In this document: positions 1 through 31,859 of the stretch, one piece after another
Layout: the number at the start of each line of letters is the position of its first letter
Numbering within the stretch: the stretch's first letter is position 1
Source of the DNA: Flectonema sp. DT1601
Lineage: Eukaryota
Length of the DNA: 64,000 nt
Assembly (NCBI GenBank): GCA_964019425.1
Contig: OZ025782.1
Coordinates: 1,426,001-1,490,000 of the forward strand
Direction: 5' to 3'
Notes under the pieces: model-generated
Seen by the model: only the letters and a program-made list of their open reading frames with translations
What the model was told of the DNA's origin: nothing
Database searches by the model: none
Position numbers and translations under genes: made by a program

Positions 1-3000
1 TTTTCTCGTGGAAGTCGAGATCAATCAGCAATTCACTGAGATCTCCCGTTACGTGTCCCTCACTTCCGACCTTGTTCGGTGACTTAATCGCTCCAGCTTC
101 AGCGGCAAACTGCACTACTCCTACTCTAACCCCCTGGGTAGGACTGTCTCTGAACATCTTTCCTGGCGTTCCCGAAAGCGGAATACTCTTCACCCAGTCA
201 CGAATCTTCTCAACCATCGCGTAGTATCCATTCGGGTGTCTGCTGAATGCTCCTTGCATCGAAGTCGTGGAGTCAATGGCGATGACAATATCCATCAATG
301 GACATCCTCCGAACTGGCCGGTCACACACTCGTTCTTCGAACCATCCCAGAAACACCCGAGATCCTTGTTGCACGGACACGGCATCGTAATCTTCGTACA
401 GTTCTTATCAATGCATTTGTTCATTGACGAGTCCCAACCGCACTTCAGCTCAGGGTCAGTCGAACAGCTTCCTTGCTCAGTGAACTTGCTACAGTACTTG
501 ACCTTGCAAATCGATGGAGACTCGTCGACTGACCAGTGACACTTGTCATCGTGATTGCACGTCACTTCATCCGCGTGGGTCGCGCATTCACAGCACCACG
601 CGTTAGTTTCGCAAGTCTGTGAATTACAGCGGTCTTTCACGCACAACTTCTCCTCTGCCTTCCATGAACAACTCTCGGCAGTCGCCTGGGTGCACGCCGA
701 TTCATTCGTGTACGTGCAATCCGTTTTAGTGCACACCATATCGTGCGTATCCCACTCACATCCTACTGGATCTGTTGAGCAACTGTCCTCGGACTTGTGG
801 TTGCACTTCTTCTCTTGGCAACTGGAACCATCCCACTGGCAGCCATTCTCCGTGTCCGCAACGCACGGTGTTTCTGTAGCATGCGTAGGGCAAACTGGCT
901 GCCTCGAGCAGGACTTTCCATCCCACCCGCAGAAGTCGTCGGTGGCAGCTGTGCAGTTATTCTCATTACATCCAAACGACAAACATGGAGAGTTAACGCA
1001 TCCAAGAAGAGATTCCGACCACACGCACCACGTGTCAGCCAAGCAAACTCCGGCTGATGCATGCACAGCACACGGCTGGTGCTCCGCTCCTTCACGCTTC
1101 GCGATCAGAGCTCCAAACTTCTTTGCAGGATCACAAATGGCATCAAATACTTCAGTTACCAGATCGTCCAACTTCAAGTTCAAGAAGTGATTGTCAGTTG
1201 GTAGGGACACTATCGGCTTTAGCGCGAACTCTGCGTCGATGTCCTCCTGAGTTCTCGTATTGAGGCGACGAATCACTACTCCAAAGGTCTGAACTGACAA
1301 GGCATCCAATGATCCACGTGCGGCCTTCAACCTGTCCGCATCGTTCAGCTTTCCATCTGTGATCAGGATCAAAACGCGCTTCCTCGTCGAAGGCGAGGCC
1401 CTGAAGATTTCCACCGCGTGCTCAAGGGCTCCCTGAACGAAGGTGCGACCGGCCATTTGATTCTTGTTGTGGTAAACAATGTCCTTCTCCAACTCTGACA
1501 AGCTTCCGGACAAAAGTCCGTTCGCTGTTCCAGCAAAACCAGCCGTCGTTCTCGGCGCCCCAGGAGTCGAGAACTGGACGAACCCAACACGCATGCCCGT
1601 TGCCTTAGTATTTTCCTTCGCCGTGTACGAGTCGCCGTTCAGCGGAAGTTTCTTCACCCAGTCCTTTAGGAACGTGGTGAGCGCCTCGTATCCGTGAGGG
1701 TGGCGTCCAAATGCCTGGCTCATCGATCCCGATCCATCGAACACTATTGCTACATCAAGAGGTGGACAAGCTCCAAACAATGAAGTCACACACTCATCCG
1801 AAGCCGAGCTCCAGAAGCATCCGGACTCTTCTTGGCACTCACACTGTTTTCCGTTGAAACGGTCGCACCTCGATTCCATGCAACTGTCCTGCTGGGAGTC
1901 CCACGCACACGCCACATCTCCATCACAGTCGTTCTGCTGTGTCCAGCGTGCGCAGTAGGTTTCTGTGCAGTATGCCGGTGATGAGTCCACGTTCCAGGTG
2001 CAGGCCACGTTGGTGTGGCACGATGACTCATCCAGGTATTTGGCACAAGGGCGCTCAATACACTTAGCGTTTTCCCACTTACACTGCTTGTCGCCAACGC
2101 AAATATCCATTACTACGTGCTGACACGGCTTCTCACTGCACACCGAGGCAACCTGGTCCCAGGTGCACTCCGTGTCTGCCAGGCAGTCTTGCGAAGTAGT
2201 GTAGCTGCACTTCTTCAACGTACACTTATCCTGAACCCAGTGGCATTCATCCTCTGTGTCACTAATGCATGCCACTTCAGTAATGTGCTTACATGGGCGC
2301 GGCTCGCATCGGTCCTTAGGCCACCAGCATGCGGGGTCCAGTCCACAATCGTTCGAGTTCGTTGCCGCACACACCTTTGTTTTTCCACATGAGTGGTCAT
2401 TGGCGTCGTACTTGCACAACAGATCCTTATCGGCAGAGGTGCACAAATCTTCCGAGCAAAGCTGCAGGCAAGGAGTGTTCGCGCACCTCACCAAACTGTC
2501 ATCCCACTGGCAACCCGAGTCGCGATTGCATTCTGCTGAGTTGTGATGGAAGTCGCACGGAAGGTGTGAGTCGGTAGTCTTTAGGTCTACTAACCACGTT
2601 CCCCATGGGGTACTAGGGTTGCACCACTTCTCGAATACGTTGTCTTGCAATTCATCAATCATATAGTTTGCAAAGTGCGTCTCCTGTGGCTCCGTCACCA
2701 GCGGTTTCAGTGACGACTCTGCCTCCAGGTCACTGGTCTCGTGGAGGTGATGCTTCCTAATTACGATACCGACTGTGTGTATTCCCATGGCGTCCAGTTT
2801 GGACTTTGCGAGTGAGGTCTGGTCAGAGTCTTCAATTTTGCTGTCGATAATCACCATCAGTACCTTCTTCCTTCCATCGTTTGGTGCTTTAGATAGCAAT
2901 CCAGCAGCAATGTCGAATGACTCGGCAAGGAAGGTTCCCTCTCCCATGAAGTTTTTCTCTTGCCAGTCCAAATCCCCAGTCAACTCCGGCAGGTAGCCAG

Positions 3001-24500: not shown

Positions 24501-27500
24501 AGCGATGGGATACCGTCTCCCTTTGTTACCCCGCTATTAGGATTGCATGAGCACGTAGGGCACTGGGCAACCCGAACTCCTGTGTCCCACGAGTTGAAGG
24601 CCACACGAAGCTTTCCTCCCTTGACGTTCGAGTTGATACCCTTGGTTGAATCCTCGCCGGTCAGGGGAACCTTCTGTACCCAGTCCCTCATCACTTCCAT
24701 CAGAGCATCAAACCCGCTAGGGTGACGACCGAACGTCTTGTCCATCGAGCACGACGCGTCAAACGACACCACCACGTCGAGGTCAGGGCAGCTCGAGTAC
24801 TTCTGGTCTACACAAACCGCAGAGCCACTTGATCTGTCAATAATGCAGCGAGGGTCTTCTTTGCACGGACAAATGAAGTCATTAGGGAACAGGTTGCTGT
24901 TGTAGTCACTGCACACCTTGTCAACGCACTTGTTGTTTGCGACGTCCCATCTGCACACCCCTTTTTGGTCACTGTTGCAGCTGTCCTTGTTTGCGTGCGT
25001 GTCAAAGCAGTACTTCTCTGCGCACAACCCACACCCAACAGCGTCCCAATGGCAGTCCGTGTCGCGGTTACACGACACCTCGTCAGCGTGCGGGTAGCAC
25101 TTGGTCTCCGAACATGTCGTACCGTCCCAGTTGCAGGCTGTGTCTGCGAGGCACTCGGCTTGAGTTGTTGTCGTACAGCGTTTCTTGTGGCACAGCGGGT
25201 TCGCACCATCGCCCCACTCACATCTAGGTACATTTAGTTGGTTCTCACAAGAACTCTGATCGGTAAAGAGGCAAACTTTGTTGATACACGAGTCGCTCAC
25301 GCAGTCCCAGTCGCACAACCCACTCGGGTCAGCAAGGCACTTTTGCTCATCTTTGATTTCTTTGCAGTCTGGCTTGGTTGGGTTGCATGTTCCCGTTGGT
25401 GCATCCCATTTGCACTTGTCATCGGCGTTGCACGGCCCAGGCGCGAAGTGCTGGCAGTCTTTCGGGTCGCATTCAGCTGGAACCTTTGTCGTATTCCAAT
25501 CACACAGGTCATCCTGCACGCAATCCTGCTGAGCTGGATGCTTGCATACTTCACGCTGGCACTTATCCTGGTCCCAGAAGCATCCAGTAGCTAAATCGCA
25601 GTCCGGCTTGAGACAGTGCTTCTCGCATTCCGTCGTTACGCACATTCCACTAGCTGTGTTCCTCGCTCCCGCGGTACACGCCACGGAACCCCCAGCGAGC
25701 ATGCAGTTCTCACAAACAAACCCAGCAGCCTTCTGTGTTGCTGAAAGCTCTAGACAGTTCAGGTTCAAGCAACCTTCAGCCGCTGCACATTTCTGGGGAA
25801 CCACGTCCTGCCAGTCACAAGCCTGATCAGCCCTGCACTCCAGCTTCACTCCCCATTTTGAGCAAGGGACAACAGCTCCGGTCGCCGGCGGCGGCGTATT
25901 TCCTCCCTGGTTCTGGTGCGCTAGGATGGCGGCCCCAAAGCGGCCAGCAGGATCACAGAAGTCCTTAAATACCTCATCCAACATGTCGTCCAGTGGAACG
26001 TTCACAAAGTGGTCATCGTGCGGGTCCGAAGTGATCGGCTTCAGAGTCTTCTCTGCATCCAAGTCTGCCTTCGTGTGCGCGGCACTCTTCCTTACAACTA
26101 CACCGAAGGTGATTACATCCATATTGTCCAAGCTCTGGCGGATAGCTGGGATTTCGCTGCTGCTCTGCGGTTCCTTAGGGTTCATAGCTCCATCAGTGAT
26201 GACGATCAGTACGTGTTGTCTGTGTGATGGCGATCCCTGGAATACGTGCACCGCATCCTCCAGTGCTTTTGCCATGTAAGTAACTGACTTCATGTAGTTC
26301 GTCTCGTGCCAGTCGAGGTCGACATTCAGCTCGCTGAGATCTCCACTGAGTTCTCCATCTGTGCATGTACCAGCAGGGGCAGGAGCGCGGCAACCCCTCG
26401 TTCCTAAAGTGCATCCCTGGCCGTTGTTCTTGCACACCCAGTATGCGTCAGTTCTCGAGAATTGTACGAACGCAAGACGGAAAGTTCCACCGATAACCGA
26501 GGATTGCTGGCCCACCGTGTGATCCTCACCTGTCAACGGAAGGGTCTGCATCCAGTCACGCAGCATCTCTACCATTCCAAAGTATCCGTGAGGGTGGTTT
26601 CCGAATCTCGCACTCATGGAGCCAGATCCGTCCAGCACAAACACCACATCGAGATCTGGGCATGCCGATACGTGCACATCCCTACACTTCGGGTTGGTGG
26701 TTGAATCCCAGTAGCAGTCGGGGTTTTTAGTGCAGTCGCAGTTTGTTAGGTCACCGCATCTTGTCTTCTCACAGTAAGTTCCATTCCCATCGCTTCCTTG
26801 CTTACAGTTGGGGTCCGACGAGCACCTTGCATCGACTGTGCTTGCTGGTGGGTACTTTGTGTTGTACGCCACAGTACATTCCGTTGGCTGGCACGATGCA
26901 GGCGCCGTGGTGGTGTTCCAGTGGCAGCGTGGGTCATGGTCGCACGCAACGATGTCGTCTCCGAAGCTTGGGCAGTAATCCGTCGTGCACGGGGTTGTTC
27001 CATCCCACATACAGAGTGGATCCTGGTCGCAGTTATTCTGAGTTGTGTGCACCTTGCACTTATCAACTTCGCATTGCTGGCTGCGGGTGTTCCACTTACA
27101 GTTCTCGCATCCAGCCGCGTCACAAGGTTGCTGAGCAGTATACGTGCACGGTCTCTCTGAGCATGCCCCATTAACCCATTCGCAATTCGAGTCGACGCCG
27201 CACGTTGCTGTGGTCGTGTATTGACAACGACTGTCGCGGCATTCAGTTGGCAATGAGCAGTTGTACACACACTGCGGGTCCGCAAGGCAATCCGCCTGCG
27301 ACTTTCCGTCACATGTTGGGATTTGCAAGCACACAGGCGGGTCAACACCCGTATCCCACAAGCAGTCGGTCTTGTTAAGGCACGCATCCTGCACAAATAT
27401 AGCAGCGCACGGTTTCTTCGAGCAGTCCCTGGTATTGTCATCCCACTGGCACAGTGAGTCCGCGTCTCCTTCGCAGTTCGTCTTGTCAGTGTGCTCGCAT

Positions 27501-30500
27501 ACCTTTCTGGTACATTCTTTCGGTGTTCCCGACCACGAGCATGCGGGGTCCTTGTCACAGCAGTCTTTCTCGCAACACTCCTTGCAGTGTGTCGCCGAGC
27601 AAGTACCATCAATTGCAGAGACTACTCCAGCACCGCAGATGACCGTTGCCCGTTGCAGCTTACAGTTCGCGCACTGGTAAATTCCAGCGTATTGGCTCGG
27701 CACAGCCCGACAGTTCAATTCAGGACACCCGGTTGGTGAGTCGCACTTGCTGAGCTTCGGCTGTTTCCATTCGCAGTATTTATCGGCGTTACACTCGTCC
27801 TTGAATCCCCAAGTTGCACACGGGAAGTGCGTGCTGTCAACAGGTGGGATGAGAGACTTTCCGATCGGGCTCGATGGGTCGCAGAATACATTCAGCAGTT
27901 GGCTCGGGATCTCGTCCAGCTGCAGGTTCAAGAAGTGGTCATCCTTCGGATCCGTAACCAAAGGTTTCAATCTCAGTTCTGCATAGTCATCCTGATAAGT
28001 GCGTCCAGTAAATCTGCGCATCACTACACCAAACACAATAACATTCTCTTTGCGGAGGTCCTGTTGAGCCTTGTCGAGCATACCAGGGTAGGTTGGCTGC
28101 CACAACTGATCACATCCGAAAGGACACTGATTGCACGAATTTCTAGCGCTGCATGCGTCTCCGTTGATATCGGTTAACCCACCGTCGGCGATAATAACCA
28201 CAATATGCTTTCTGTGAGGTGGTGAGTTTTGAGGCAAGAAGGTGTGATCGGCAACATCTTGCAAGGCGTCGTGGATGTAGGTCCATTGACGCTGGTAGTT
28301 CGCCTCGTGCCAGTCGATATCCCCCATCAGCTCCTGCAGGTTACCAGACAGCATACCGTCAGTGCACTGACCGATCGCGCAGTTAGTTGGATGGTCTTCA
28401 TCAGGACGTGCGTTCGCCTTTGAGAACTGGATGAAGGTAATACGAAACGTTCCACCTGTCACTGCCGAGTTCTGTCTTACAGTATGGTCCTCGCCCGTCA
28501 GCGGTAGGGTCTTCACCCAGTCGCGAAGCATTTCCAGAAGGGCAGTGTATCCGTGCGCATGGCGCCCGAATGATCTCCACATCGATCCTGAACCGTCAAT
28601 TACAAAGGCAACATCCAGGTCTGGGCATTGGGACAACGAAGGGATCGCACAGTGCGGGTTGTTTGGGTCTGCCACCCACGTGCAGTCCGGATCTTCGTTA
28701 CACTTGCACTCATCCTTCGGGTTGTTATATTTGTCACACGTTTTAACAGCGCAGTACGCAGGGTTCGCGTTCGTTTGCCACATACACTTGTCATCGTTCT
28801 GGCACGCCGGCTGCGTTGGGTACCCTCCACATGGTGTCTGTGTGCATACTGGCGGCGTACCTGTCGTGTCCCAGTGGCACGCGGTATCTGCGTTACACGA
28901 ACCGGCGTCAGGGTGCTTCACACATGGCCTTTCCACGCACTTGTCGAGTGCGGTGTCCCATTGACACTTAGTATCGGCATTGCAAGTTGTGTCACTAACG
29001 TATTGGCAGATTTTCTCCGCGCAGTACTCAACCAACGTCGATGGCGGGCCAGGTGGTGGAGGGGTCTGCACAGGAACCCACTCGCATCCGTCCTCAGCAT
29101 TACAGTCTCCTTCTTTTGTGTGAAGACACTTCTTTGGGTAGCATTTCGGGGTCTTGCTAGGATCATACTCACACACACTGAGGAAGCAGTAATCTGGATC
29201 TCCTGCAGGAGGATTGCACGGAGCTCCCATTTCGACCGCTACTGCTTCACATGGTTGTTCGTTCTCGTGTACGCGGCAAGGATCATCGATACATTTGTTT
29301 GTTGCCCACATTGCGTTCCACAAGCAGTCTTTATCAGTTTTGCATTGTGCTTCATCTTTACCACTGCACCCTGGTTGCTCGCGCTTACAGTCGCCATTAT
29401 CCCACAAGCATCCCGGATGAGCCTTACAGTCAGTCTCTGAACACAACGGGTAACAGTCTGATTGAGTGCATGATGGCGTAATTGAAGCATCCCACTTGCA
29501 GTTCAGGTCCGCCATGCAGTCCGTCTCACTCCCTTTCGGTGCACACCCGCTCGGTACAGTCACAGTCCCAGCAGCGATTCCCCTTCCAAAAACGCTTGTA
29601 GAGTCGCAAATCTGATCCAGTACCTGTTCCTTGAAGTGGTCGAGGTCAACGTTGAGGAAGTGATCATCCTGTGGGTCAGACACCAGCGGCTTTAGCTTCG
29701 CTTCCGCCTGAAGATCTTGGCGTGTGTGCCCAGTCGCCTTCCTCACAACCACACCGAAGATTTGCGCGTCATGGTCGTTCTTTAACTTGTCCTCTATCGT
29801 ACGAATGTCGCTGTCCCGGTCATGTAGCGCACCGTCAGTAATGATCATCACAATCTTCTTTCTCGCCTGGCCGCTATTCTGAAAGGTGTCATATGCCACT
29901 TGCAATGCCGGAGCTAAAATCGTCTTGCCCTGACTCCACCTCCTGCAGAAGAAGTTCTCGTGGAAGGTTACGTCGTTCGAAAGGCTGGCGTAGTTTCCAG
30001 ACAATGCAGCTCCCTGAGTTGTTCCCGCAACTGCGACCCACGGTTTACAGTTTACGAATCCCGCAGGCGCAGGTGGAGAGTTTTGCGCGGTCTGCGCTTC
30101 ACCAGGCTTACCAAACTGCACCAACGAGGCACGAATACCGTACGTCGAGGTCGACGATGGCGCCAACTCAGCAGTGTGCAGAAAGTCTCTCATTTCCTCC
30201 ATCATTCCGTAAAACCCGACTGCATGTGATCCAAACCTGGCGTCCATCGAACCTGATCCGTCAAGCAAGAATGAGATGTCGACAGGTGGACACTGCACAT
30301 TAGGATCAACACAATGGTTGTTTGCTGAATCCCAAATACAGTCCGGCGAGGCAGCTAAACAGTCGCACTTGTCGCTGATGTCACCGCACACGCGCTTTTG
30401 GCACTCAGCCCCAGCTGGATTGTTAGCATTCCAATAACAAGGTCCCAAATTATCAGCGTTGCACGCATCTCTAGCCTTGTTAGTCGACGGGCAGTATGCA

Positions 30501-31723
30501 TCAACGCACACTGCTGGAGACTTCGTCAGGTCCCAGTCACAAAGCAAGTCCGCTTCGCAGTTTCCTTCGTTGTCGTGAGCGTGGCATCCGTCTTCTACAC
30601 ATGTCGCAGGGTTTTGGCTGTCGTCCCACTTGCAGGATCCGGCCGGCTGGTGTCCCTCACACGCACCAATGTTATTATACACATGACATCCGGCGATCAA
30701 CACCTGCGTTCCGTACACGTCATCCGGGTTCATACAGAGGTCTCCAACTCCTCCCCATTCGCAAACGAATCCCTTGATGTTGTCGTGTCCGTTTGGGTAG
30801 TCGTTCCACGTACCATCTGCGTAGTAGTGCCCGTAGTCTTCTCCAGTAGTAGCACAGGTTCCCGCACACGGTCTGGACCATTCGTTCGGTTCACCAGATC
30901 TCCAGTTGGTAAACGCTCCATTGGCTATCCGAAATCCAGAACCTCTTCCGGTTCCGATCAGCATACCCTTACCACAGTCTGCTCCAGTGCACGGTGTCTT
31001 CGACTCAGGAAGTGGATATCCGAGGTCGCACGCAGAACGCTGTGGCCCAGTCACCGCTGTATTGTATGGAGGGCAACCTTCTGGACCTGTCAGCCATCTC
31101 CATTCTCCTTCCTTAGCTACGTCACCACTTCCAATCCATCCCTGACCGTGAAGCTTTTCCGAGGCGATCTTTTCTTCCTGCGCATCAGTAATTGTGATCA
31201 GGTAACCTACCAGACCAAGGATGTCTTGGCTTTTCGAAGCGCACTCGGCTTGACCCTGGTCCCAATGACACTTTCCAGCGTTCCCCTGCGCATCCACACA
31301 TCTTGAGTTGTACTCGTAAAAGTGTCCTGTTGCAGTTGAATACATCGCATGACCAAAGTTGTACGTGACACGGCGGGAAGCCCCATTTCCCGAAGATGTC
31401 TTGAATTCGATCGATGCCAAGGCCGCTGCATATTGGGAGATTGTCGCGGTCCCTGAAAGAGTCATGATACCCGTATCAGCATCAAAGTTAGCAGTAATAG
31501 GACTAGTGCAGGCAGTGCATTTTAAGGTGTCGGCTCCCTTAACATACCCTTCCTCGATGTCCATCACAGCTCCCGATATGGTTGTGCTGCAGTCGCATGC
31601 CCCGGACGTGAATGTGATTTGGTTGCAATCAACATCCGGAAACGCAGTCATTGCAACGCCCTGTTCATACTTCAGGCCGCTGCTGGCTCCTAAGATCCCT
31701 AACAACAGAACGAGTTGCCTCAT
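1..31723 (-). CDS. Giant secreted/surface multidomain protein (>10,570 aa, 3' end outside window): VWA x17, Ig-like + C-type lectin x3, EGF-like x14, many Cys-rich repeats
   Basis: ATG at 31723 gives MRQLVLLLGILGASSGLKYEQ (signal peptide). Spot translations at about 30200, 24750, 22450, 20000, 17290, 13500, 10450, 4820, 3250, 1750 and 10 are all in the same frame and give domain motifs. The ORF track lists no stop-terminated ORF in this frame below 31723, consistent with no in-frame stop. Confidence 0.95.
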   Translation of the reverse strand, partial: MRQLVLLLGILGASSGLKYEQGVAMTAFPDVDCNQITFTSGACDCSTTISGAVMDIEEGYVKGADTLKCTACTSPITANFDADTGIMTLSGTATISQYAAALASIEFKTSSGNGASRRVTYNFGHAMYSTATGHFYEYNSRCVDAQGNAGKCHWDQGQAECASKSQDILGLVGYLITITDAQEEKIASEKLHGQGWIGSGDVAKEGEWRWLTGPEGCPPYNTAVTGPQRSACDLGYPLPESKTPCTGADCGKGMLIGTGRGSGFRIANGAFTNWRSGEPNEWSRPCAGTCATTGEDYGHYYADGTWNDYPNGHDNIKGFVCEWGGVGDLCMNPDDVYGTQVLIAGCHVYNNIGACEGHQPAGSCKWDDSQNPATCVEDGCHAHDNEGNCEADLLCDWDLTKSPAVCVDAYCPSTNKARDACNADNLGPCYWNANNPAGAECQKRVCGDISDKCDCLAASPDCIWDSANNHCVDPNVQCPPVDISFLLDGSGSMDARFGSHAVGFYGMMEEMRDFLHTAELAPSSTSTYGIRASLVQFGKPGEAQTAQNSPPAPAGFVNCKPWVAVAGTTQGAALSGNYASLSNDVTFHENFFCRRWSQGKTILAPALQVAYDTFQNSGQARKKIVMIITDGALHDRDSDIRTIEDKLKNDHDAQIFGVVVRKATGHTRQDLQAEAKLKPLVSDPQDDHFLNVDLDHFKEQVLDQICDSTSVFGRGIAAGTVTVPSGCAPKGSETDCMADLNCKWDASITPSCTQSDCYPLCSETDCKAHPGCLWDNGDCKREQPGCSGKDEAQCKTDKDCLWNAMWATNKCIDDPCRVHENEQPCEAVAVEMGAPCNPPAGDPDYCFLSVCEYDPSKTPKCYPKKCLHTKEGDCNAEDGCEWVPVQTPPPPGPPSTLVEYCAEKICQYVSDTTCNADTKCQWDTALDKCVERPCVKHPDAGSCNADTACHWDTTGTPPVCTQTPCGGYPTQPACQNDDKCMWQTNANPAYCAVKTCDKYNNPKDECKCNEDPDCTWVADPNNPHCAIPSLSQCPDLDVAFVIDGSGSMWRSFGRHAHGYTALLEMLRDWVKTLPLTGEDHTVRQNSAVTGGTFRITFIQFSKANARPDEDHPTNCAIGQCTDGMLSGNLQELMGDIDWHEANYQRQWTYIHDALQDVADHTFLPQNSPPHRKHIVVIIADGGLTDINGDACSARNSCNQCPFGCDQLWQPTYPGMLDKAQQDLRKENVIVFGVVMRRFTGRTYQDDYAELRLKPLVTDPKDDHFLNLQLDEIPSQLLNVFCDPSSPIGKSLIPPVDSTHFPCATWGFKDECNADKYCEWKQPKLSKCDSPTGCPELNCRAVPSQYAGIYQCANCKLQRATVICGAGVVSAIDGTCSATHCKECCEKDCCDKDPACSWSGTPKECTRKVCEHTDKTNCEGDADSLCQWDDNTRDCSKKPCAAIFVQDACLNKTDCLWDTGVDPPVCLQIPTCDGKSQADCLADPQCVYNCSLPTECRDSRCQYTTTATCGVDSNCEWVNGACSERPCTYTAQQPCDAAGCENCKWNTRSQQCEVDKCKVHTTQNNCDQDPLCMWDGTTPCTTDYCPSFGDDIVACDHDPRCHWNTTTAPASCQPTECTVAYNTKYPPASTVDARCSSDPNCKQGSDGNGTYCEKTRCGDLTNCDCTKNPDCYWDSTTNPKCRDVHVSACPDLDVVFVLDGSGSMSARFGNHPHGYFGMVEMLRDWMQTLPLTGEDHTVGQQSSVIGGTFRLAFVQFSRTDAYWVCKNNGQGCTLGTRGCRAPAPAGTCTDGELSGDLSELNVDLDWHETNYMKSVTYMAKALEDAVHVFQGSPSHRQHVLIVITDGAMNPKEPQSSSEIPAIRQSLDNMDVITFGVVVRKSAAHTKADLDAEKTLKPITSDPHDDHFVNVPLDDMLDEVFKDFCDPAGRFGAAILAHQNQGGNTPPPATGAVVPCSKWGVKLECRADQACDWQDVVPQKCAAAEGCLNLNCLELSATQKAAGFVCENCMLAGGSVACTAGARNTASGMCVTTECEKHCLKPDCDLATGCFWDQDKCQREVCKHPAQQDCVQDDLCDWNTTKVPAECDPKDCQHFAPGPCNADDKCKWDAPTGTCNPTKPDCKEIKDEQKCLADPSGLCDWDCVSDSCINKVCLFTDQSSCENQLNVPRCEWGDGANPLCHKKRCTTTTQAECLADTACNWDGTTCSETKCYPHADEVSCNRDTDCHWDAVGCGLCAEKYCFDTHANKDSCNSDQKGVCRWDVANNKCVDKVCSDYNSNLFPNDFICPCKEDPRCIIDRSSGSAVCVDQKYSSCPDLDVVVSFDASCSMDKTFGRHPSGFDALMEVMRDWVQKVPLTGEDSTKGINSNVKGGKLRVAFNSWDTGVRVAQCPTCSCNPNSGVTKGDGIPSLSIITGTTPTVADTCGKLTGDRTQLLADLDWYEGEALRCQTKVKEAEEWAGEIFKESPASRQKVLLIITDGRIMDKDELGPAGQVLAAEGVKVFGILLRRQATATTRDLANLATLKEIVSTPKATHALSLQVDEALSIMDGFCDPNSPFGTYITQGSSSQVTSCSQIGALASCDSEKTCKWNSISLKCEDHPCFSNCNENNCTNDPNNKCLWNTNGDTCEKAVCTDYQNQLDCKANNCQWDQAKNPACFEPECDATTEDACVNLGEKCMWDTSLQPPDCVKTPCYYNKTECVADPDCQWDDVCSDPVDQKCVPKRCILDSHKTQAGCQADIFCVWSQQLTCEPAPCVNYPDEKCCDHDDSCHWDVSQAPAVCKQKYCPSTYPSAAHLDPCNADGLCMWNSTTNECVDKVCNKMEECACKEDPDCFWSGVKCADKKYGECPVMDIILLLDGSGSMSRNFGRHPHGFFALVEILRDWVKTLPLTGEPAASPTPGGPVTGGVRLGFVQFSGKNRGWPWPWSSGRSNAIETSGNTGTGGHLSGLEREINDDLDWHENNYLGKGTMIQLGLEMVGDMFDRSHKVSSRKRILIIITDGRIYDPDVLSPARQVLDQEQVQTFGIVVRRQSGHTKADTDAEKTLKPITSDPHDDHFQNLQIDEIASQVFADICDPNGVWGHLIVTSTNAPGQSGVHKPCDHYTDTHECTQDSGCVWDAASAACADSPCTAHCHNPECTADTLNLCVWNTTTGDCWKTTECAYTTKAECQKSPEKCVWDDVKKCEKEKCTPNTNLQDCLDDPDTCEWINVNGKDQCVEKKCQYPDQNTCKTDPNCDWSADACNGTAQSCKEILCTHTTAGDCTADSRCSWDATGVVGICKENLCAKYLDERCCDHKDACKWDITVTPPVCGDKKCPKIDNKNTCNNDTDCLWDDTNNKCTDLDCSKYPTRCPCDKNSKCYWKPGAGLNGQGQCVAIEFGECPTIDIAVIIDGSGSMSSTFGSHPHGFYALVEMLRDWVTKLPLNGEDATVGLNSAPNNAGVRVAFVQFSGKNYRRSEAKAASGSGTTNGRLSGVLGELDADLDFHENNYYKKGTMIEKALTMAGDIFHGSPVDGRQRVLFIFTDGRIFDEQSLAPARAELDREGVQTFGIVVRKRDQHTKADLDAEKTLKPITSDPHDDHFQNLMIDDIPDLIGSICDPNGPWGHLIVKDPPKPTTGVHHPCPDYVTETPCEQDAGCVWSDVGGLCVNSPCLLHCLEPDCRNDKGNNCTWDSQNATCSKAEDPTCPCKFDTTDAKYNEQQCNADVRCTWESNKCIYDECKTKGAGCTGVGQSCTDPNKEPCSPDDYVCECIPPSTVFPAGTPPSQQPAECRLDECVASCPTCANDTCTALGQTCNDPNPTMTHHSDWTCTCPPPSTGKATAAAADCKLDECVVDCRTCGKCTDGQTCFDPNKGATATSDWMCVCPPPSNNTQVTGQANCSIDECTLHKDICTNVGQQCVDPNPLQQGDWKCECLPPTNGTMTAGPAVCLLDECEKDCPTCEKDVCKGAPTGEQKCNDPDKTATSTGDWTCECIPPMTGVGVVAPAHCKLDECIKVCPTCANDTCSSQNQTCHDPNHDATSLSDWVCKCPPPATDIAVAAAATPCEDDECHDPNNEKVCTAAGQVCVDDDKKTRGTWECECIVPPAVAAMRGQQVPAQCEYPGECATSNDAKMKCTDLGFVCDDPNPMVAGDWVCMCAPPATGTNVTLGTPTDCVLDECVVTCPTCAQTDTSSTNVCSAEGQRCVDNNQSHTDLGDWTCECIPPQVGTPAVAAPAKCQLDECVAVCPTCAQTQQGGPSTCTAAGQTCEDPDRSVDSTSDWTCTCVNPGRGVATAKLADCVCDECRNNTICLVAGQTCYDAKKTCPPEDDFKCECPPPTSGVMTASAATCTVDECVENEATCKQVGQTCRDQNTTKLNDWECLCPPPSVGIAITQQAKCVLDECVQTCPTCAGTTCSDVGQECEDPNMTPQSTNDWLCKCQPPSTNVATGKPAKCEEDECDTNGFKCTADCRAGSLNCQQTCFDPNTTVSSKDDWRCVCPPPSSDFAIAKAAECTNDPCKHDNEQTCLADPEGCEWKDLPTPGCTRKPCLHDKQSDCAADPVCDWATGSGKAGNLANQLSFEKDVPVKPFDGLACETPGSWKNGCSCATTIGSNVLPGAIVDIEDGYYNNGKDTLTCVACKALGLTAEWHAQSGMLSISSGTAADLAKAIASIEFSTSADNTGKRRITWNYGHGFFSSHTGHYYHFFPKSTCPGGACKWSEAQDQCALGSNKILGLLGYLITITSETEDEVARKKLEGQGWMGATDRHQESTWSWVTGPEGLAGGCVYTPTTSSCDIQNEAGLPFGQGTAGNFVLRVDAATGKNMYANWAGAEPNNWSGPCPGSCATDGEDYAHFLSPSGEWNDYPGDHHHIDGYICEWGGVGEMCVAVGDATGVTDLVPGVCVEKVCVNDTETDCKANPKCEWLGGNVEPCVVAPCVENPNEKECDKDPVCHWDVTVSPSLCKEKVCNKNKDPTTCSAKDDCVWDDGANRCVDKECDPFDRCDCKAEPRCFWDTSSGAGKCVESRYGQCPTLDVVLLVDGSGSMSQNFGRHPNGFYAMMEMIRDWVKTLPLTGESHQVGINSTAPNGGMRMGVIQFSGIPISGGTAIDKAAIRTPIGVGSFGSLTGKLTELQADIDYHEANYLQAGTYINQGLGWAGDMFRASPVGRKRVLIIITDGAIKDDDKLSAARATLNQESVEVFGVVLRRQATHTAVDTAAEEKLKPITSDPHDDHFENLIIDELPATVLNGLCDPNSKWGALLMPGAAAQNQSGVHKPCPQYVDQVLCTADPGCLYSSVGLECVDSPCVQHCNQTQCTADTLNDCFWNASVVGLEGCWKNPLCSYQDAATCEKDPKCDWNQTKTDCEERICNQPTEAECDLDPKGCEWDGLQQTCVEKPCKQTNASACNSDVLCEWDACDGVTDGAQCIKKRCVAAPGNPALTEQDCNADQHCEWQSNACALKLCTHHSDERCCDKDPKCHWDLSLTPSQCSIKHCARMNQNKPACDTDPLCTFNDSSTECVDKECKNLDRCDCLAETKCFWNSLAPKQFCTETKFGQCPTLDLVLLLDGSGSMSATFGRHPHGFYGLMEMLRDWIKTLPLNGEKANVGLNSAPNTGEVRVGLIQFSGKNKRGASAGRADAKGTPAGTGTGGSLSGDFDELSTDVDWHEANFYSRGTMIQKGLQMAADVFHQSPNDGRQRVLIIITDGRIYDPEQLQAARSELDTEKVQVFGVVVRKNTQHTKADLDAENTLKPITSNPHDAHFQNLQIDEIPDKVLGDICDPNGVFGSLVLGQAAQQGAGAANPASGGVHQPCPQHLQQVGCLADPGCVWFDNSLSCGDSPCLHHCEEQNCTADAANGCAWTNGTICLREPKTGCDIYTGKPTECEAQKDCQVDKNGSTCIDKKCNRDNEQGCLADPDDCVWNNLNQKCTEPPCKETDEGKCVASQDGCVWQTTIPLNSTVSAYARGQPMVPFPTLTCTVSGTCSCSDTVKGAAVDVEEGYVKGKDVLACDQCAALGFEAEWHDIPGVLYLKSKTPKTLTEYAAALATVTFTTTSDAGSPRTITWNYGHGFLSTVTGHYYHYFSKSECLNVDPTATECHWGQAQAECESADNMILGLTGYLITITSDEEDRVAKLKLEGQGWMGAADLKDEGQWGWVVGPEGLESGCTYAAQKSGCDLSSQVGLLIGSGTGGSFAVATNSKTGKPMYTNWEAGEPNNYRGACPGSCAASGENYAHFRWPSGEWNDFPGDHQRIDGYICEWGGVGQLCVNPEDASGHVEITAGTCVEEKCKAGRKDPCVADPYCEWKDNTTECVQKKCTEYMTEIQCDKIEDCHWNPSISPAMCVEKPCAKLQDVATCEADSDCAWDKDRSKCIDKDCNKLDKCDCVDDEKCYWKVEQAPQGSCRKVTYGECPTLDVVMILDGSGSMSRNFGRHPHGFYALMEMVRDWVKTLPLSGEKAVVGINSAAGTEKLRVALVQFSGHPEFLVPSSNIVNSVAFPPVGVGAGGRLTGDLSELSDDVDWHEANYLEAGTYIEKAMVRAGSIFKTSSPVDGRKRVLIIITDGKIQDDDKLAQVVKDLEGMDVQTFGIVVRRTDQLTASDVAAEDSLKPITSDPHDDHFLNLLIDQIPDQALNGICDPNGPWGHLIVDQAATQAQQAGVHRPCPNYDNKIPCSADMGCIWSDVLIACLDSPCVKHCTENQCANSTDCRWNTTVLECFNKEVCPGILDSNACNQNDKCSWNATTNECIDTPCLHPDESSCIADSTFKCTWDTVNGTCTQTPCQAVDKTNCNQEPGCEWNEACGDASCEAIPCQHAEETECSKDVLCKWSQQSCSRRLCAVYPDEKCCNQKDGCHWDVQQAPAVCAQLPCRKFDDNVACDAERECMWKNNKCLEKDCGEFEKCDCDADPDCFFTTANGGSHCTFQRYATCPTLDVVLLLDGGASMSRAFGRHPHGFYALVEVVRDWAATLPLSGEAAGATTMPQTKAIRLAMVQFAGSTQWPSSDEKQALSSPSGTGTGGRLSGVLSEVKADADFHEGSFMGASATAQPDVRQTYLLGALQKAVSLFQTSPFDGRKRVLIIVSDGELNDKDSYTAARAALDQAQVHVFGIAVRPFGTVSADDVKTQETLLGALSDPKDQHLQSLQIDEVASALKGLCDPNHVWGKFIADSSVACTLYSSKDPCNKDDGCVWFDRTLSCGDSPCLAHCLDTNCTADQENHCVWNQTLGACRKEEICDHADTTDCENDKKCQVDPVDRQTCIGKICDHDNQQGCLADPKGPCLWDEISKTCDKQPCVYFEPVFCNNDTECTWNNDANLCEPIRCRWTQQVDCEEKDDNACEWKNNTCTFKPCKHHPDEKTCGEDDLCTWGTDCEVKYCRRYGEQGSCDQDGACMWLNDTCVDKNCGEFEVCRCRKDGDCYWDKGTCKESKFGECPTLDIVLLVDGSGSMSQSFGVHPHGFYGLMEMLKTWTSSLTLSGVPAGGSPSLDGKARVGFVQFSGIPTNKLPNGNVDGAQTSPAQVGASGRLTGLKAELDSELTWQEANYMQGGTYIASALDTAADMFKESPGSLRKKVLLIFTDGAILDDKILQPARGRLETAGVVTFGIVVRRFLAHTKLDLLAEETLKPITSQPQVDHYLNLLLSEIPEALDGLCDPNSLWGKYVVDQSQAGVHKPCQNYVDKTKCDSDPGCLYQEVLTACVDTPCIRHCLETECNNDQSNHCNWNSQEQVCYKKEICPHTNLQDCNQDPMCAWNQTVCGEKPCLHPDENSCLADTEFDCTWETGTQNCVLTPCQHTDESSCNAAGCEWDQCPGSSADDACVERLCVATAETACTADSRCDWNSGSCSAKPCVLYPGEKCCNSFDGCHWDVQQSPAVCAQLPCRKFDQNGCEGEDECMWESGKCIEKDCGKMDKCRCEGDADCFYAKSADSHCTFQRYGTCPTLDVVLLLDGGASMSRAFGRHPNGFYALVEVVKDWAATLPLSKNAAGQTPLADTKTVRLAMVQFAGSSKWLPGDARQATFSPKGTGSAGSLTGSLAEINDDAKYHMQAFLGASVVTQPATQQTYLLAGLEKAVSLFRSSPVDGRRKVLIIVTDGELVDKDAYGQAMAELDQAQVRIFGAVIRPFSTRTAVDLKAEETLKQIVTAPRAAHFQNILVDELAAALNGICEPGHVWGRYVADVSDEVLPCPTVAEKDPCNKQSHCVWFDETLSCGDSPCLKHCKEANCTADWPNQCLWEGGACMKEEVCNFPTARCEKEDKCEVAKDGTTCIGKKCEHDNEQGCLADPDPCEWNNLAQTCGNRPCTYDTIPTCEQDLNCTWNTDAKYCELKKCSPYLNKEDCLQKPTTPGLCEWVKQIAGGELCETAPCKQYSSEKECNGDVICEWDTSIAPGICNEKYCRRHCTKKGCNKATCDADAKCLTEGNSCVTKVCEKLSSDPCACHNDPDCFWIPSEQACVDTRYGTCPTLDLVVLFDGSGSMSKAFGRHPHGYFAEVEMLKTWVQGLPLSGQAAGTTSTVNRKTRVAFVQFSGVPQDSGSPVTGPIPGSALKTPSNVGTAGRLSGDATELLADLSWHEANYMGQGTYIRAGLDMAVGIFQDSPLDGRKRALFIITDGAIQDKNLLASAQAKLSSQQVEVFGIVVRRFATHTQLDSDAEEVLKPITSDPHVDHFKNVDMDELADENGPLTKMCDPATGWGSALALQPVGGEHQPCRKYEGKTSCMSDVGCVWSETLLGCVNSPCVVHCSEAACNGDLTNGCVGGWNDQEKTCYREEVCGGDNIVACESEEGCEWNATASDCSEKRCHHTTEGSCLADTETTCLWKDPATCVVMPCVNYRSQDVCQQDTENSCKWTGDNTCVQTKCAYTTEVECRVDALCDWQTSNQTCTVRPCVEYTEDKSCDADRRCHWDTSTSPGSCQLKRCAKYSDQPMCEADSGCLWENDVCVEKTCHKIPERCDCQQDPTCFWSNTGGRGRCEEQAYGKCPTLDVALVLDGSGSMSQSFGRHPHGFYAMMEMIRDWVKTLPLSGEDSTVGSKSVPSGGVRVGFVQFSGLAGSTGPTGGVVNSAQRTPPGVGTNGRLSGDLTQLQADIEWHEDNYMKQLTFIEEGLVMASNMFAQDSPVDGRRKIIIIITDGVLMDGDKLSGVKSTLKQQQVLVFGIAVRRFSARTQEDIDAEAALKPVVSAPADEHFLSLMLDEVPTEVLTGLCDPASKWGKFVAGTGSGSIGLPSGAVPCDQFPSKGVCNQEKACAWGDSAQVCGNTPCFQHCNSTQCNGDVGNHCEWNATESVCWKSKLCAHANEGDCKQDNECVWKNDTCVEKPCVHDDEDACLADPEGCTFDSLQQICSPEPCKTLKTNDDCNTMSEICEWDTHGLICKPRRCVSCGSNSTCCVEDENNKQWCEMNTTANVCQEKPCVGHADEITCHEDLVCEWDAAVAPGKCKERFCSRYGDATSCNNEPACHWDFSTCSEKKCGDYAKDSTDTDKVHCACNSNPECFWHDNVCVDVHYGACPTMDIVVLFDGSRSMAESFGRHPRGYAALLEMIRDWSLLLPLANDYGRADRNGTDYAKGLTRIAFIQFSGNENRKVNGVVKGSSLSAPTGKGRAAGRLSGYLPELTGDLDWQEKNFMGEGTFLAESFDIAAGLLSKAPNDGRKKVLMVIIDSKIEDSDQTSLAKSKLDAMGIHTVGIVIRKHHLHETSDLEAESSLKPLVTEPQETHFANYMIDELQDNVFEKWCNPSTPWGTWLVDLKTTDSHLPCDFHHNSAECNRDSGCQWDDSLVRCANTPCLQLCSEDLCTSADKDLLCKYDANDHSCGKTKVCAATNSNDCGLDPACWWPKDRCEPRPCKHITEVACISDTEDECHWVQDKCTLKKCSYTTSQDCLADTECTWDQVASVCSEKPCQHVVMDICVGDKQCKWENAKCIERPCAKYLDESSCHTNVACTWNVDSSPAYCTETYCARWTQQNDCDGDVACAWDSQQDSCMESRCDRFNGKQCECQEESGCFWSSASDECVTSLFGACPPLDVAIVFDGSGSMSQAFGRHPHGYEALTTFLKDWVKKLPLNGDSYTAKENTKATGMRVGFVQFSTPGAPRTTAGFAGTANGLLSGSLSELEKDIVYHNKNQMAGRTFVQGALEHAVEIFRASPSTRKRVLILITDGKLNDADRLKAARGSLDALSVQTFGVVIRRLNTRTQEDIDAEFALKPIVSLPTDNHFLNLKLDDLVTEVFDAICDPAKKFGALIAKREGAEHQPCAVHASAGVCLADTWCVWSESLLGCVNSPCLSFGCNENNCTAATDDFCGWDGKSCSRQPVCPTHATETPCVADTENGCQWDGSSCQEKKCNHKSEDSCSTDPVGCEWDTHDMVCTKTDCTYTNESACTQATAESCSWKAEEKLCVKDRCNSQTCETNAWCCECATHADEVTCNHDDKCHWSVDESPSICKVKYCSKFTEQGSCSTDPELKCGWDSSMNKCIDKNCTKITMPCPCNKDLGCFWDGSKNECVTGQFGGCPLMDIVIAIDSTTSMQGAFSRHPNGYYAMVEKIRDWVKSIPLSGTPGKMFRDSPTQGVRVGVVQFAAEAGAIKSPNKVGSEGHVTGDLSELLIDLDFHEK
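12990..13890 (-). other. Ig-like + C-type lectin module (third copy) in giant ORF
   Basis: Translates TGHYYHYF...HWGQAQAEC...GYLITITSDEE...GWMGAAD...YTNWEAGEPNN...EWNDF...GYICEWGG. Confidence 0.85.
14450..16710 (-). other. Two VWA domains with intervening Cys-rich repeats
   Basis: DGSGSM motifs at about 15095 and 16676, plus FGRHP and IITDG motifs. Confidence 0.85.
17100..18010 (-). other. Ig-like + C-type lectin module (second copy) in giant ORF
   Basis: TGHYYHFF...WSEAQDQC...GYLITITS...YANWAGAEPNN...EWNDY...GYICEWGG. Confidence 0.85.
18270..20585 (-). repeat. Array of 14 EGF-like modules (~55-60 aa each) in giant ORF
   Basis: 14 copies of a D(W/F/Y)xCxCxPP-type motif counted between 18291 and 20500, with DEC and CxDP(N) elements. 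Confidence 0.85.
20920..30300 (-). repeat. Six VWA domains separated by Cys-rich repeat blocks in giant ORF
   Basis: DxSxS motifs at about 21557, 23156, 24758 (DASCS), 26630, 28595 and 30260. Confidence 0.85.
30700..31670 (-). other. N-terminal Ig-like + C-type lectin module in giant ORF
   Basis: TGHFYEY...GYLITITD...NWRSGEPNEW...TWNDY...GFVCEWGG. Confidence 0.85.
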
Positions 31724-31859
31724 TCTAGTATATCGATGTGAAAAACTGCTCTCAGCGGCAATGTTTAACAGTTTTGGTTTTTCTCCTTAACTTTCAGGAT
31801 CAGAGGTTTTCCTTTCCTAAGATTTTTTTTTTTTTTTTTTACGGTTTTTTTTTTTTTTA

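What the first reader, a model, noticed from the sequence alone, without database searches (positions are those of the whole stretch)
1..31723. Hidden intronless >10,570-aa surface protein combining VWA, C-type lectin, EGF-like and Cys-rich repeats
Seen: half the window is one reading frame, absent from the ORF track because it has no stop inside the window. Order from N- to C-terminus is signal peptide, Ig+CTL, 6x(Cys-repeats+VWA), 14xEGF-like, Ig+CTL, 2xVWA, Ig+CTL, then at least 9xVWA. Known: VWA (MIDAS), CTL and EGF domains mediate adhesion and ligand binding. Inference: a megadalton-scale multivalent adhesin or prey-capture/matrix protein in a protist. I do not recognise this architecture from a described protein.
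Basis: partly seen in the sequence, partly recalled or inferred. Interest (0 to 1): 0.9.

Follow-up and report, generated by a model that had tools for sequence, protein, structure and literature searches.

The report
Giant diplonemid VWA–lectin surface protein gene
A diplonemid protist genome carries one unbroken gene of at least 10,574 codons encoding 17 VWA domains, three C-type lectin domains and well over a hundred disulfide-rich repeats. It likely makes a giant membrane-anchored surface adhesin of a family nobody has yet studied in this abundant group of ocean microbes.

Summary
Window 2..31723 (minus strand) is one open frame of 10,574 codons, starting at an ATG with a signal-like N-terminus and running off the window edge.

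- lectin module
- 6 VWA
- 14 EGF-like repeats
- lectin module
- 2 VWA
- lectin module
- 9 VWA, the last one cut by the window edge

VWA is solid by Pfam, and 14 of 16 complete copies keep all MIDAS residues. The C-type lectin call is solid: profile against PDB E 4.6e-13, AF2 model pLDDT 90, VIA Z 14.8, and EPN/WND motifs in all three copies. The spacers are arrays of 4-cysteine, PSI-like units. "EGF-like" and "Ig" remain unproven labels.

The gene is not an orphan. Colinear orthologue pieces from diplonemids cover its whole length (Flectonema 83% identity, also Rhynchopus, Namystynia, Diplonema). Two of them supply the missing C-terminus, which is a transmembrane helix plus a short tail.

It belongs to a large, uncharacterised diplonemid family of giant modular surface proteins. 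The lectin module is shared with giant prokaryotic adhesins.

The best reading is a type I membrane, multivalent metal- and Ca2+-dependent adhesin. The function is inferred, not tested. Interest is moderate to high: a new architecture built from known adhesion domains.

The parts
2..31723 (-). Single open reading frame of 10,574 codons; ATG at 31721-31723; no stop before the window edge
31673..31723 (-). Signal-peptide-like N-terminus (aa 1-17), judged by eye
   Evidence: similar N-termini in relatives P0001 and P0039
30734..31636 (-). Lectin module L1 (aa 30-330): beta-rich domain plus C-type lectin-like domain with EPN and WND motifs
   Evidence: (Lectin_C 22.9 bits, cut-off 22.6)
20834..30292 (-). 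VWA copies V1-V6 (aa 478-3630), each followed by a Cys-rich spacer of 4-cysteine units
18251..20584 (-). 14 EGF-like repeats (aa 3714-4491): 6 invariant Cys per repeat and a DEC start motif
   Evidence: Only weak support for the EGF label
17126..18022 (-). Lectin module L2 (aa 4568-4866), the module that was modelled
14333..16708 (-). VWA copies V7 and V8 with the modelled spacer between them (aa 5248-5534 = nt 15122-15982)
12998..13876 (-). Lectin module L3 (aa 5950-6242)
   Evidence: (Lectin_C 23.2 bits)
2..12568 (-). VWA copies V9-V17 with their spacers (aa 6386-10574); V17 is cut by the window edge
398..493 (-). The one spacer unit that passes Pfam's PSI threshold (aa 10411-10442; 31.4 bits, cut-off 23.1)
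   Evidence: proteins 34 and 35

Best explanation
The minus-strand frame 2..31723 is an intact gene for a protein of at least 1.15 MDa that is predicted to be a type I membrane-anchored, multivalent surface adhesin of a diplonemid flagellate.

Shown directly:
- One unbroken frame.
- 17 VWA domains.
- Three C-type lectin-like domains, each preceded by a beta-rich domain.
- 14 EGF-like repeats.
- About 4,900 residues of 4-cysteine, PSI-like units.
- Conservation of this order across diplonemids.

Inferred mechanism:
1. The N-terminal hydrophobic segment would send the chain into the ER.
2. There its 870 cysteines would form up to about 435 disulfides.
3. Runs of about nine helix-plus-hairpin units would form stiff stalk segments that space out the VWA heads.
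4. The 14 VWA copies with complete D-S-S-T-D MIDAS residues would bind acidic ligand residues through Mg2+ or Mn2+, as integrin I domains do.
5. The three lectin domains, which carry EPN...WND, would bind mannose-, GlcNAc- or fucose-type sugars through Ca2+.
6. A C-terminal transmembrane helix and short tail, seen in two orthologues but lying beyond the window, would anchor the protein.
7. Many weak sites on one long tether would give high-avidity attachment to prey, host tissue, detritus or substrate.
For: The gene is real:
- 0 stops in 10,574 codons.
- The repeats are diverged.
- No internal hydrophobic segment in the Kyte-Doolittle scan. Separate downstream products would therefore lack any membrane or secretion signal of that kind, despite 8% Cys.

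Domains:
- Pfam VWA at E 1e-55 to 1e-72 per third of the protein.
- All five MIDAS residues in 14 of 16 complete copies.
- The nearest solved VWA sequence is the integrin alpha1 I domain: all 10 hits, best E 3e-5.
- Lectin_C scores 22.4-23.2 bits against a cut-off of 22.6.
- A 25-row lectin-module profile hits solved C-type lectins at E 4.6e-13.
- The AF2 model has pLDDT 90.3 and pTM 0.88. Foldseek returns 276 hits at E<=1e-3, and all listed ones are C-type lectin domains. VIA gives Z 14.8 at rmsd 1.8 over 122 residues.
- EPN, E and WND are present in 3 of 3 copies.
- The spacer model has pLDDT 89.7 and shows nine helix-hairpin units.

Conservation (colinear pieces):
- P0039: aa 1-3526, 49% identity.
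- P0062 (Flectonema transcript): aa 3583-4763, 83%.
- P0038 (Namystynia): aa 3724-7881, 37%.
- P0024 (Rhynchopus): aa 4555-10572, 38%.
- P0037 (D. papillatum): aa 6230-10127, 47%.

Anchor:
- P0024 and P0036 both end in a hydrophobic helix plus a tail of about 30-50 aa.
- 10 of 11 relatives scanned have a C-terminal hydrophobic segment.

Analogy: Dictyostelium Sib adhesins combine an extracellular VWA domain, a transmembrane segment and a cytosolic tail, and losing them reduces adhesion to substrates and particles (passage read in PMC3279395). Diplonemids are described as predators or opportunistic parasites (passage in PMC10653844).
Against: - No binding, localisation or expression data exist for this protein.
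- The stop codon and any anchor lie outside the window.
- No relative longer than 7,060 aa was found among candidates of 5,499-17,499 aa. No full-length orthologue or single >30-kb mRNA is therefore on record, and the Trinity contigs stop at 6,951 aa.
- The two orthologue tails printed show no NPxY motif by eye, so integrin-like talin coupling is unsupported.
- V10 and V12 have Gly in place of the first MIDAS Ser.
- The EGF and Ig labels are unproven.
- The sugar specificity read from EPN is recalled textbook knowledge, not tested here.
Confidence: 0.62

Rival explanations
1. It is mainly a structural coat or matrix protein: a shed or secreted mucin-like or glycocalyx scaffold that protects or shapes the cell surface. 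On this reading the VWA and lectin domains cross-link the protein to itself and to surface glycans, rather than binding foreign targets.
For: - Very large size, acidic pI of 4.7 and 62 N-glycosylation sequons.
- VWA domains drive matrix self-assembly in animal proteins (recalled knowledge).
- A D. papillatum paralogue carries the automatic label 'Halomucin'.
- GC3 is 0.60 against 0.27-0.375 in 10 neighbouring ORFs, and only cathepsin L shares this bias. That would fit an abundantly expressed product (inference).
Against: - Orthologues end in a transmembrane helix plus a cytosolic tail, not a free C-terminus.
- There are no Ser/Thr/Pro-rich mucin tracts; the composition is dominated by D, C, A, G and T.
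- Intact MIDAS and EPN/WND sites suggest specific ligand binding.
Confidence: 0.2
2. It mediates recognition between diplonemid cells, such as aggregation, mating or swarming, through homophilic or lectin-to-glycan contacts, rather than prey or substrate capture.
For: - A large, variable family built from shuffled modules (VVVV+EGF-like x~60, V+EGF-like x~65, LVVLL, VL) exists within diplonemids.
- Lectin plus EGF-like arrays are typical of cell-cell recognition proteins (recalled knowledge).
Against: - This particular architecture is conserved in order across distant diplonemid genera at 37-83% identity. That argues for a conserved ligand rather than fast-evolving self-recognition.
- There is no direct evidence either way.
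Confidence: 0.1
3. It is not one functional gene. It could be an assembly artefact, a decaying pseudogene, or several adjacent genes that happen to share a frame.
For: - No RNA data for this organism.
- The window ends inside the frame.
- Database relatives are all shorter than 7.1 kaa.
Against: - 0 stops in 31.7 kb.
- No near-identical DNA repeats that could collapse.
- Colinear orthologue pieces bridge every block junction.
- No internal hydrophobic start segments.
- Six small contigs of a public run match the 5' end with 0-1 differences, though that run may be the same sample.
Confidence: 0.04

Closest known systems
Uncharacterised giant diplonemid proteins built from the same modules (for example the Rhynchopus euleeides transcript P0024, Namystynia karyoxenos P0036/P0038, Flectonema neradi P0062, and D. 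papillatum KAJ9442392.1 labelled 'Halomucin')
   Same: They share the same VWA, 4-Cys spacer, EGF-like and lectin modules. Orthologue pieces are colinear at 37-83% identity. Where the C-terminus is present it carries a transmembrane helix and a short tail.
   Different: None on record is longer than 6,951 aa, and none holds the full L-6V-14e-L-2V-L-9V order in a single entry. All are unstudied: they are hypothetical proteins, carry an automatic label, or are unnamed.
Dictyostelium Sib (similar to integrin beta) adhesins, and integrin beta chains and alpha I domains
   Same: An extracellular MIDAS-type VWA domain on a type I membrane protein with Cys-rich PSI- or EGF-like stalk elements. Sib proteins act in adhesion to substrates and particles (PMC3279395 passage). 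The nearest solved VWA sequences are integrin alpha1 I domains.
   Different: - 17 VWA copies instead of one.
- No Pfam SIBA-E or integrin-beta family hit.
- Orthologue tails lack NPxY by eye.
- It adds C-type lectin modules.
- It is about ten times larger.
Apicomplexan TRAP/CTRP-type adhesins (VWA plus thrombospondin repeats, type I membrane; recalled knowledge)
   Same: Protist surface adhesins that use one or several MIDAS VWA domains on a stalk of small disulfide-rich repeats, with a transmembrane helix and a short tail.
   Different: No TSP1 repeats were found. It belongs to a different lineage, has far more repeats and carries lectin modules.
Giant prokaryotic surface proteins that carry the same beta-domain plus C-type lectin module (for example the Halalkalirubrum salinum 'PKD domain-containing protein', a JGI 'Ca2+-binding RTX toxin-like protein', an Opitutales 'Ig-like domain-containing protein', and proteins with a Por secretion-tail domain (Pfam Por_Secre_tail))
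   Same: The lectin module aligns over about 270 aa at 35-45% identity. Pfam Lectin_C reaches 57-287 bits in these proteins.
   Different: They are Cys-poor (0-2%), lack the VWA/4-Cys/EGF-like scaffold, and have PKD, Big or cadherin-like repeats instead. In an unrooted tree, a 96% SH-aLRT branch separates 29 Cys-poor rows plus 1 from the other 39 rows.
Entamoeba histolytica Gal/GalNAc lectin heavy subunit, and the trypanosome VSG C-terminal domain
   Same: Both are protist surface proteins with small disulfide-rich units. They are the top, but weak, structural matches of the spacer model: Foldseek E 0.13, and VIA Z 3.1 and 2.8.
   Different: The scores are far below significance, so this is a lead only.

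Membership tests
VWA domain (Pfam PF00092) | Match to the family HMM above the gathering score | tested here: met
   188-244 bits per third of the protein against a cut-off of 23.8. 27 of 35 overlapping 600-aa pieces score above the cut-off.
VWA domain (Pfam PF00092) | MIDAS residues D-x-S-x-S ... T ... D | tested here: met
   All five residues are present in 14 of 16 complete copies. V10 and V12 have Gly in place of the first Ser. V17 is truncated.
VWA domain (Pfam PF00092) | Alpha/beta Rossmann-like fold | not tested
   No VWA copy was modelled. The nearest solved sequences are integrin alpha1 I domains at E 3e-5.
C-type lectin-like domain (Pfam PF00059) | Match to family HMMs or to solved members | tested here: met
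   Single copies score 22.9, 22.4 and 23.2 bits against a cut-off of 22.6. A 25-row profile hits solved C-type lectin domains at E 4.6e-13, and all 60 rows shown are C-type lectins.
C-type lectin-like domain (Pfam PF00059) | C-type lectin fold | tested here: met
   AF2 pLDDT 90.3. Foldseek returns 276 hits at E<=1e-3 with target TM-scores up to 0.88. VIA gives 59 chains at Z>=8, best 14.8.
C-type lectin-like domain (Pfam PF00059) | Ca2+-site sugar-binding residues (EPN or QPD, Glu, WND) | tested here: met
   EPN, a following GE(D/N) and WND are present in 3 of 3 copies. The meaning of the motif is recalled, and binding was not tested.
EGF-like domain | Six-cysteine pattern with C-x-C | tested here: met
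   14 repeats with invariant C4, C16, C23, C38, C40 and C55.
EGF-like domain | Match to EGF family HMMs or to solved EGF domains | tested here: inconclusive
   No Pfam family at E<=10 for four repeats. The PDB profile finds only Notch1 EGF at E 5.8. The best named Atlas clusters are EGF_3/EGF at 0.93, but with low recognition. The fold was not modelled.
PSI domain (Pfam PF01437) | Match to the HMM above the gathering score | tested here: inconclusive
   One unit scores 31.4 bits against a cut-off of 23.1. Others score 18.8-20.5 bits. Paramecium_SA scores 22.8 against 21.2 in the N-terminal spacer. Units have 4 Cys in about 30 aa, whereas the canonical PSI pattern (8 Cys, recalled) differs.
PSI domain (Pfam PF01437) | PSI fold | tested here: inconclusive
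   Local Foldseek matches to semaphorin PSI: 36 columns, rmsd 2.0, probability 0.97, E 0.56. 6 of 9 VIA rows are PSI domains, but at Z of only 2.1-2.4.
Ig-like or bacterial cadherin-like domain (N-terminal half of the lectin module) | Beta-sandwich fold or family HMM match | tested here: inconclusive
   The model shows 8 strands and one helix at high pLDDT. There is no Pfam hit and no PDB sequence hit. The fold lists were filled by the lectin domain. In two prokaryotic relatives a Cadherin_5/Big_9 domain sits at this position.
Integrin beta / Dictyostelium Sib family | Family-specific domains and a talin-binding NPxY tail | tested here: not met
   No integrin-beta or SIBA-E Pfam hit in the protein. 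The tails of orthologues P0024 and P0036 show no NPxY by eye. The window's own tail is not available.
TRAP/CTRP family | Thrombospondin type 1 repeats next to the VWA domain | tested here: not met
   No TSP_1 family is listed in any Pfam scan of the protein.

The most novel reading that the evidence does not exclude
Diplonemids, among the most abundant heterotrophic flagellates in the ocean, carry a lineage-specific 'mega-adhesin' of about 11,500 aa and 1.2 MDa. It is made as one intron-free translation unit of more than 32 kb. It fuses an integrin-like VWA/PSI/EGF scaffold with a C-type lectin module of prokaryotic type. It would work as a tether, hundreds of nanometres long, that is the cell's main device for capturing prey, hosts or particles. 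It is one member of a whole undescribed family of modular giant surface receptors.
Probability: 0.3. Interest if true: 0.75.

Novelty: new variant of a known kind. Interest (0 to 1): 0.6.

Why it matters
Diplonemids are very abundant marine heterotrophs, and nothing is known at the molecular level about how they attach to and recognise prey, hosts or particles. The papers I checked name no adhesin.

This gene and its family give concrete candidates for that role:
- A conserved giant type I surface protein with 17 metal-site VWA heads and three Ca2+-type lectin heads.
- An orthologue in Diplonema papillatum, a species that passages of two papers describe as the sequenced, genetically manipulable model.

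It is also a case study in three things:
- How a protist built an integrin-like or matrix-like toolkit independently of animals.
- Module sharing with prokaryotic adhesins.
- How very long unbroken genes escape gene callers. Databases hold only fragments of 7 kaa or less.

Tried and rejected
- **Own-genome search:** no genome is held for this window.
- **Earlier scan findings:** none, whether searched by place, sequence or words.
- **Sequencing runs:** no RNA holder is listed. One run of unknown kind (X1) holds 0.14 of the sampled words. Laid on 12000-31900, it gives six contigs of 151-840 nt with 0-1 differences, all between 27067 and 31812. It may be the assembly's own sample, so I did not use it as independent support or as evidence of expression.
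- **Search for relatives longer than the query:** the tool would not take the query at the lengths I gave. I relied instead, whose candidate range reached 17,499 aa.
- **Near-length search with three EGF-like repeats:** 12 candidates, none at E<=1e-3.
- **Alignment A3:** overlapping three-repeat windows came out staggered by identity, so I did not use it.
- **Spacer model against solved structures:**
  - Foldseek found no hit at E<=1e-3.
  - VIA-wide found 9 chains at Z>=2 and none at Z>=5.
  - No solved counterpart of the array was found. This does not show that the fold is new.
- **N-terminal half of the lectin module:** no fold assignment was possible, because the lectin domain filled both hit lists.
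- **Literature searches:** two with loose term rules returned nothing about diplonemids. No paper among those listed held both 'halomucin' and 'diplonem'.
- **Isochore explanation of the GC3 shift:** rejected. The spacer between the giant gene and cathepsin L has GC 0.368, like other non-coding DNA in the window.
- **Supplements of the D. papillatum genome paper:** not read. They may list these genes.
Full report
**1. Observation**

With open ends allowed, the ORF listing reports a minus-strand frame at 2..31723: 10,574 aa, ATG start, no stop before the window edge. My translation has 0 stops, and the window has no N. An in-frame stop lies 21 codons upstream of the ATG, so this is the first Met. 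The N-terminus MRQLVLLLGILGASSG looks like a signal peptide by eye; I ran no predictor.

The protein is 8.2% Cys (870 residues). Inside the window it weighs 1.148 MDa, has pI 4.7 and carries 62 N-x-S/T sequons.

**2. Anatomy**

*VWA domains*
- An HMM built from the gene's own copies finds 17 VWA domains. They start at aa 478, 1033, 1688, 2312, 2846 and 3379; then 5006 and 5533; then 6386, 6903, 7405, 7910, 8432, 8949, 9476, 9986 and 10474. The last one is cut by the window edge.
- Pfam confirms VWA at E 1e-55 to 1e-72 per third of the protein, and along the whole length in 600-aa pieces.
- The copies are 28-62% identical to each other.
- 14 of 16 complete copies keep all five MIDAS residues. 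V10 and V12 have Gly in place of the first Ser.
- The nearest solved sequences are integrin alpha1 I domains: all 10 hits, best E 3e-5.

*Lectin modules*
- Three modules of about 295 aa lie at aa 30-330, 4568-4866 and 5950-6242.
- Their C-terminal halves score 22.4-23.2 bits on Pfam Lectin_C, against a cut-off of 22.6.
- A 25-row profile (alignment A2) hits solved C-type lectins at E 4.6e-13.
- The AF2 model of module 2 has pLDDT 90.3 and pTM 0.88.
- Foldseek returns 276 hits at E<=1e-3, and all listed ones are C-type lectin CRDs.
- VIA-wide gives Z 14.8 at rmsd 1.8 over 122 residues.
- All three copies carry EPN, a following Glu and WND. From recalled textbook knowledge this is the Ca2+-dependent, mannose-type sugar site.
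- The N-terminal half of the module is beta-rich in the model, but it has no Pfam, PDB-sequence or fold assignment. 'Ig' is therefore unproven.

*EGF-like repeats*
- Exactly 14 repeats of about 56 aa occupy aa 3714-4491, each with six invariant Cys and a DEC start.
- They have no Pfam hit.
- The only PDB profile hit is Notch1 EGF at E 5.8.
- The best named language-model clusters are EGF families at 0.93, with low recognition.
- The label is plausible but not shown.

*Cys-rich spacers*
- The remaining roughly 4,940 aa (47%) hold 689 Cys and 137 matches to C-x4-10-C-x-[WFY]-x2-12-C.
- A typical spacer, modelled from a 28-row alignment, has pLDDT 89.7. It folds as nine consecutive units of a short helix plus a hairpin.
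- One unit passes Pfam PSI (31.4 bits against 23.1). The N-terminal spacer passes Paramecium_SA (22.8 against 21.2).
- Structural matches are weak. Foldseek gives semaphorin PSI over 36 columns at rmsd 2.0 and E 0.56, and the E. histolytica Gal/GalNAc lectin at E 0.13. VIA's best are trypanosome VSG C-terminal domains at Z 3.1 and 2.8, followed by six PSI domains at Z 2.1-2.4.

*Assembly artefact check*
- DNA copies are 60-86% identical to their reference copies, with periods that are multiples of three.
- TRF finds nothing relevant.

**3. Surroundings and host**

All other long ORFs in the window also lie on the minus strand. They include cathepsin L, a cNMP-binding protein, a protein kinase, an MTR4 helicase and CPSF100. 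The host is therefore a eukaryote with a unidirectional gene array. The D. papillatum genome paper describes this arrangement for diplonemids (passage).

The giant gene and cathepsin L have GC3 of 0.60 and 0.675. Ten other ORFs have 0.27-0.375. The spacer between the two genes has GC 0.368, like other non-coding DNA in the window. The bias is therefore gene-specific. High expression is one untested explanation.

**4. Relatives**

A search with a 9,999-aa query (words drawn from residues 1-5000, candidates of 5,499-17,499 aa) gave 15 hits. None was longer than 7,060 aa. An exhaustive HMMER search with aa 4555-5540 gave 1,567 proteins at E<=1e-3 and 119 at E<=1e-30.

All 13 organism-named Cys-rich relatives are diplonemids:
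- Rhynchopus euleeides
- Flectonema neradi
- Namystynia karyoxenos
- Artemidia motanka
- Diplonema papillatum
- D. ambulator
- records labelled 'Hpha', which I read from memory as Hemistasia

Colinear orthologue pieces cover the whole gene:

| Piece | Source | Covers giant aa | Identity |
|---|---|---|---|
| P0039 | unnamed ENA record | 1-3526 | 49% |
| P0001 | unnamed ENA record | 19-3713 | 47% |
| P0062 | Flectonema | 3583-4763 | 83% |
| P0038 | Namystynia | 3724-7881 | 37% |
| P0024 | Rhynchopus | 4555-10572 | 38% |
| P0037 | D. papillatum | 6230-10127 | 47% |

The 83% match places the window's organism close to Flectonema.

P0038 has the order e14-L-VV-L-VVV, P0062 has V-e14-L, and P0024 has L-VV-L-V9. 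The architecture therefore predates the split between these diplonemid genera.

P0024 runs 915 aa past the point where the window ends. It finishes with Cys units, EGF-like motifs, a domain of about 150 aa, a hydrophobic helix and a tail of about 50 aa. P0036 ends the same way, with an EGF_2 hit at threshold. The full protein is therefore probably about 11,500 aa and type I membrane-anchored. This is an inference.

The wider family shuffles the same modules: VVVV+e~60, V+e~65, LVVLL, VL and V~28.

**5. The lectin module is shared with prokaryotes**

Cys-poor giant proteins carry 1-7 copies of the module at 35-45% identity. Those that are named are:
- a haloarchaeal 'PKD domain-containing protein'
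- a JGI 'RTX toxin-like' protein
- an Opitutales 'Ig-like' protein

Others among them carry a Por secretion-tail domain (Pfam Por_Secre_tail). Lectin_C scores in these proteins reach 57-287 bits.

I built a quick tree of the 69 full-length module hits, dropping 142 partial hits. It has a 96% SH-aLRT branch with 29 Cys-poor rows plus 1 on one side and 39 rows on the other. The labels are a Cys-content proxy and the tree is unrooted. It is compatible with a single ancient exchange, but it shows no direction.

**6. Mechanism**

See the best explanation. Shown here are the domains, motifs, order and conservation. Inferred are secretion, disulfide-stiffened stalks, metal- and Ca2+-dependent multivalent binding, the membrane anchor and the ecological role.

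The closest functional analogues are:
- Dictyostelium Sib adhesins (PMC3279395 passage)
- integrins
- apicomplexan TRAP/CTRP (recalled)

The protein fails the membership tests for all three.

**7. Novelty**

- No paper holds both 'diplonem*' and 'von Willebrand' in a relevant sense: 2 hits, both irrelevant by listing.
- None of the 15 listed papers (of 16 found) for 'diplonem*' plus 'lectin' concerns diplonemid lectins, judging by titles and abstracts.
- The D. papillatum genome paper has 0 occurrences of Willebrand, EGF, cysteine-rich or adhesi* in its main text.
- The euglenozoan comparative paper has 0 occurrences of VWA, EGF, C-type or cadherin.
- An ultrastructure paper only speculates about adhesins.
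- I did not read any supplements.

My verdict: this is a real, very large gene with a new architecture in an unstudied, lineage-wide family built from well-known adhesion domains.

Noticed in passing
window 32600-34484 (minus); repeat copies at 33953-33972 and 33043-33062: The cathepsin L gene is split by about 910 bp of GC-rich sequence (0.50). This insert is flanked by a perfect 20-nt direct repeat, and both copies encode GCNGGL. The exact boundaries are therefore ambiguous, and the insert looks like a target-site duplication or a non-canonical intron.
   Followed up: partly
window 31860-31879 and 32012-32031 (minus): There are two exact copies of a 20-nt motif, each following a C/T-rich tract, 137 and 289 nt upstream of the giant gene's ATG (0 expected by chance). 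They may be duplicated trans-splice acceptor regions.
   Followed up: no
window 2-31723 and 32600-34484, compared with ORFs in 34979-64000: Codon bias differs strongly. GC3 is 0.60 in the giant gene and 0.675 in cathepsin L, against 0.27-0.375 in ten other ORFs. The spacer between the two genes is GC 0.368. The bias is gene-specific rather than regional, and its cause is unexplained.
   Followed up: partly
window 43256-48049, 39124-42150, 48432-49667, 50905-52323, 34979-35626 (all minus): Five long ORFs (1,597, 1,008, 411, 472 and 215 aa) have no Pfam family at E<=1e-3. The printed sequence of the 1,008-aa ORF looks rich in hydrophobic stretches in its second half.
   Followed up: no
relatives P0009 and P0024 (not in the window): A 'GSIRGAP' motif sits just before the transmembrane helix in two family members with very different architectures. 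It may be a conserved processing or sorting signal.
   Followed up: no
spacer model of window 15122-15982 (minus): The best, though weak, structural matches of single 4-Cys units are the C-terminal domains of trypanosome variant surface glycoproteins (VIA Z 3.1 and 2.8). This hints at a shared euglenozoan small disulfide domain.
   Followed up: no
relative P0047 (D. papillatum DIPPA_09731): This 5,132-aa, Cys-poor (2.5%) protein has 28 consecutive VWA matches to the giant gene's VWA HMM. It is a different way of arraying the same domain.
   Followed up: no
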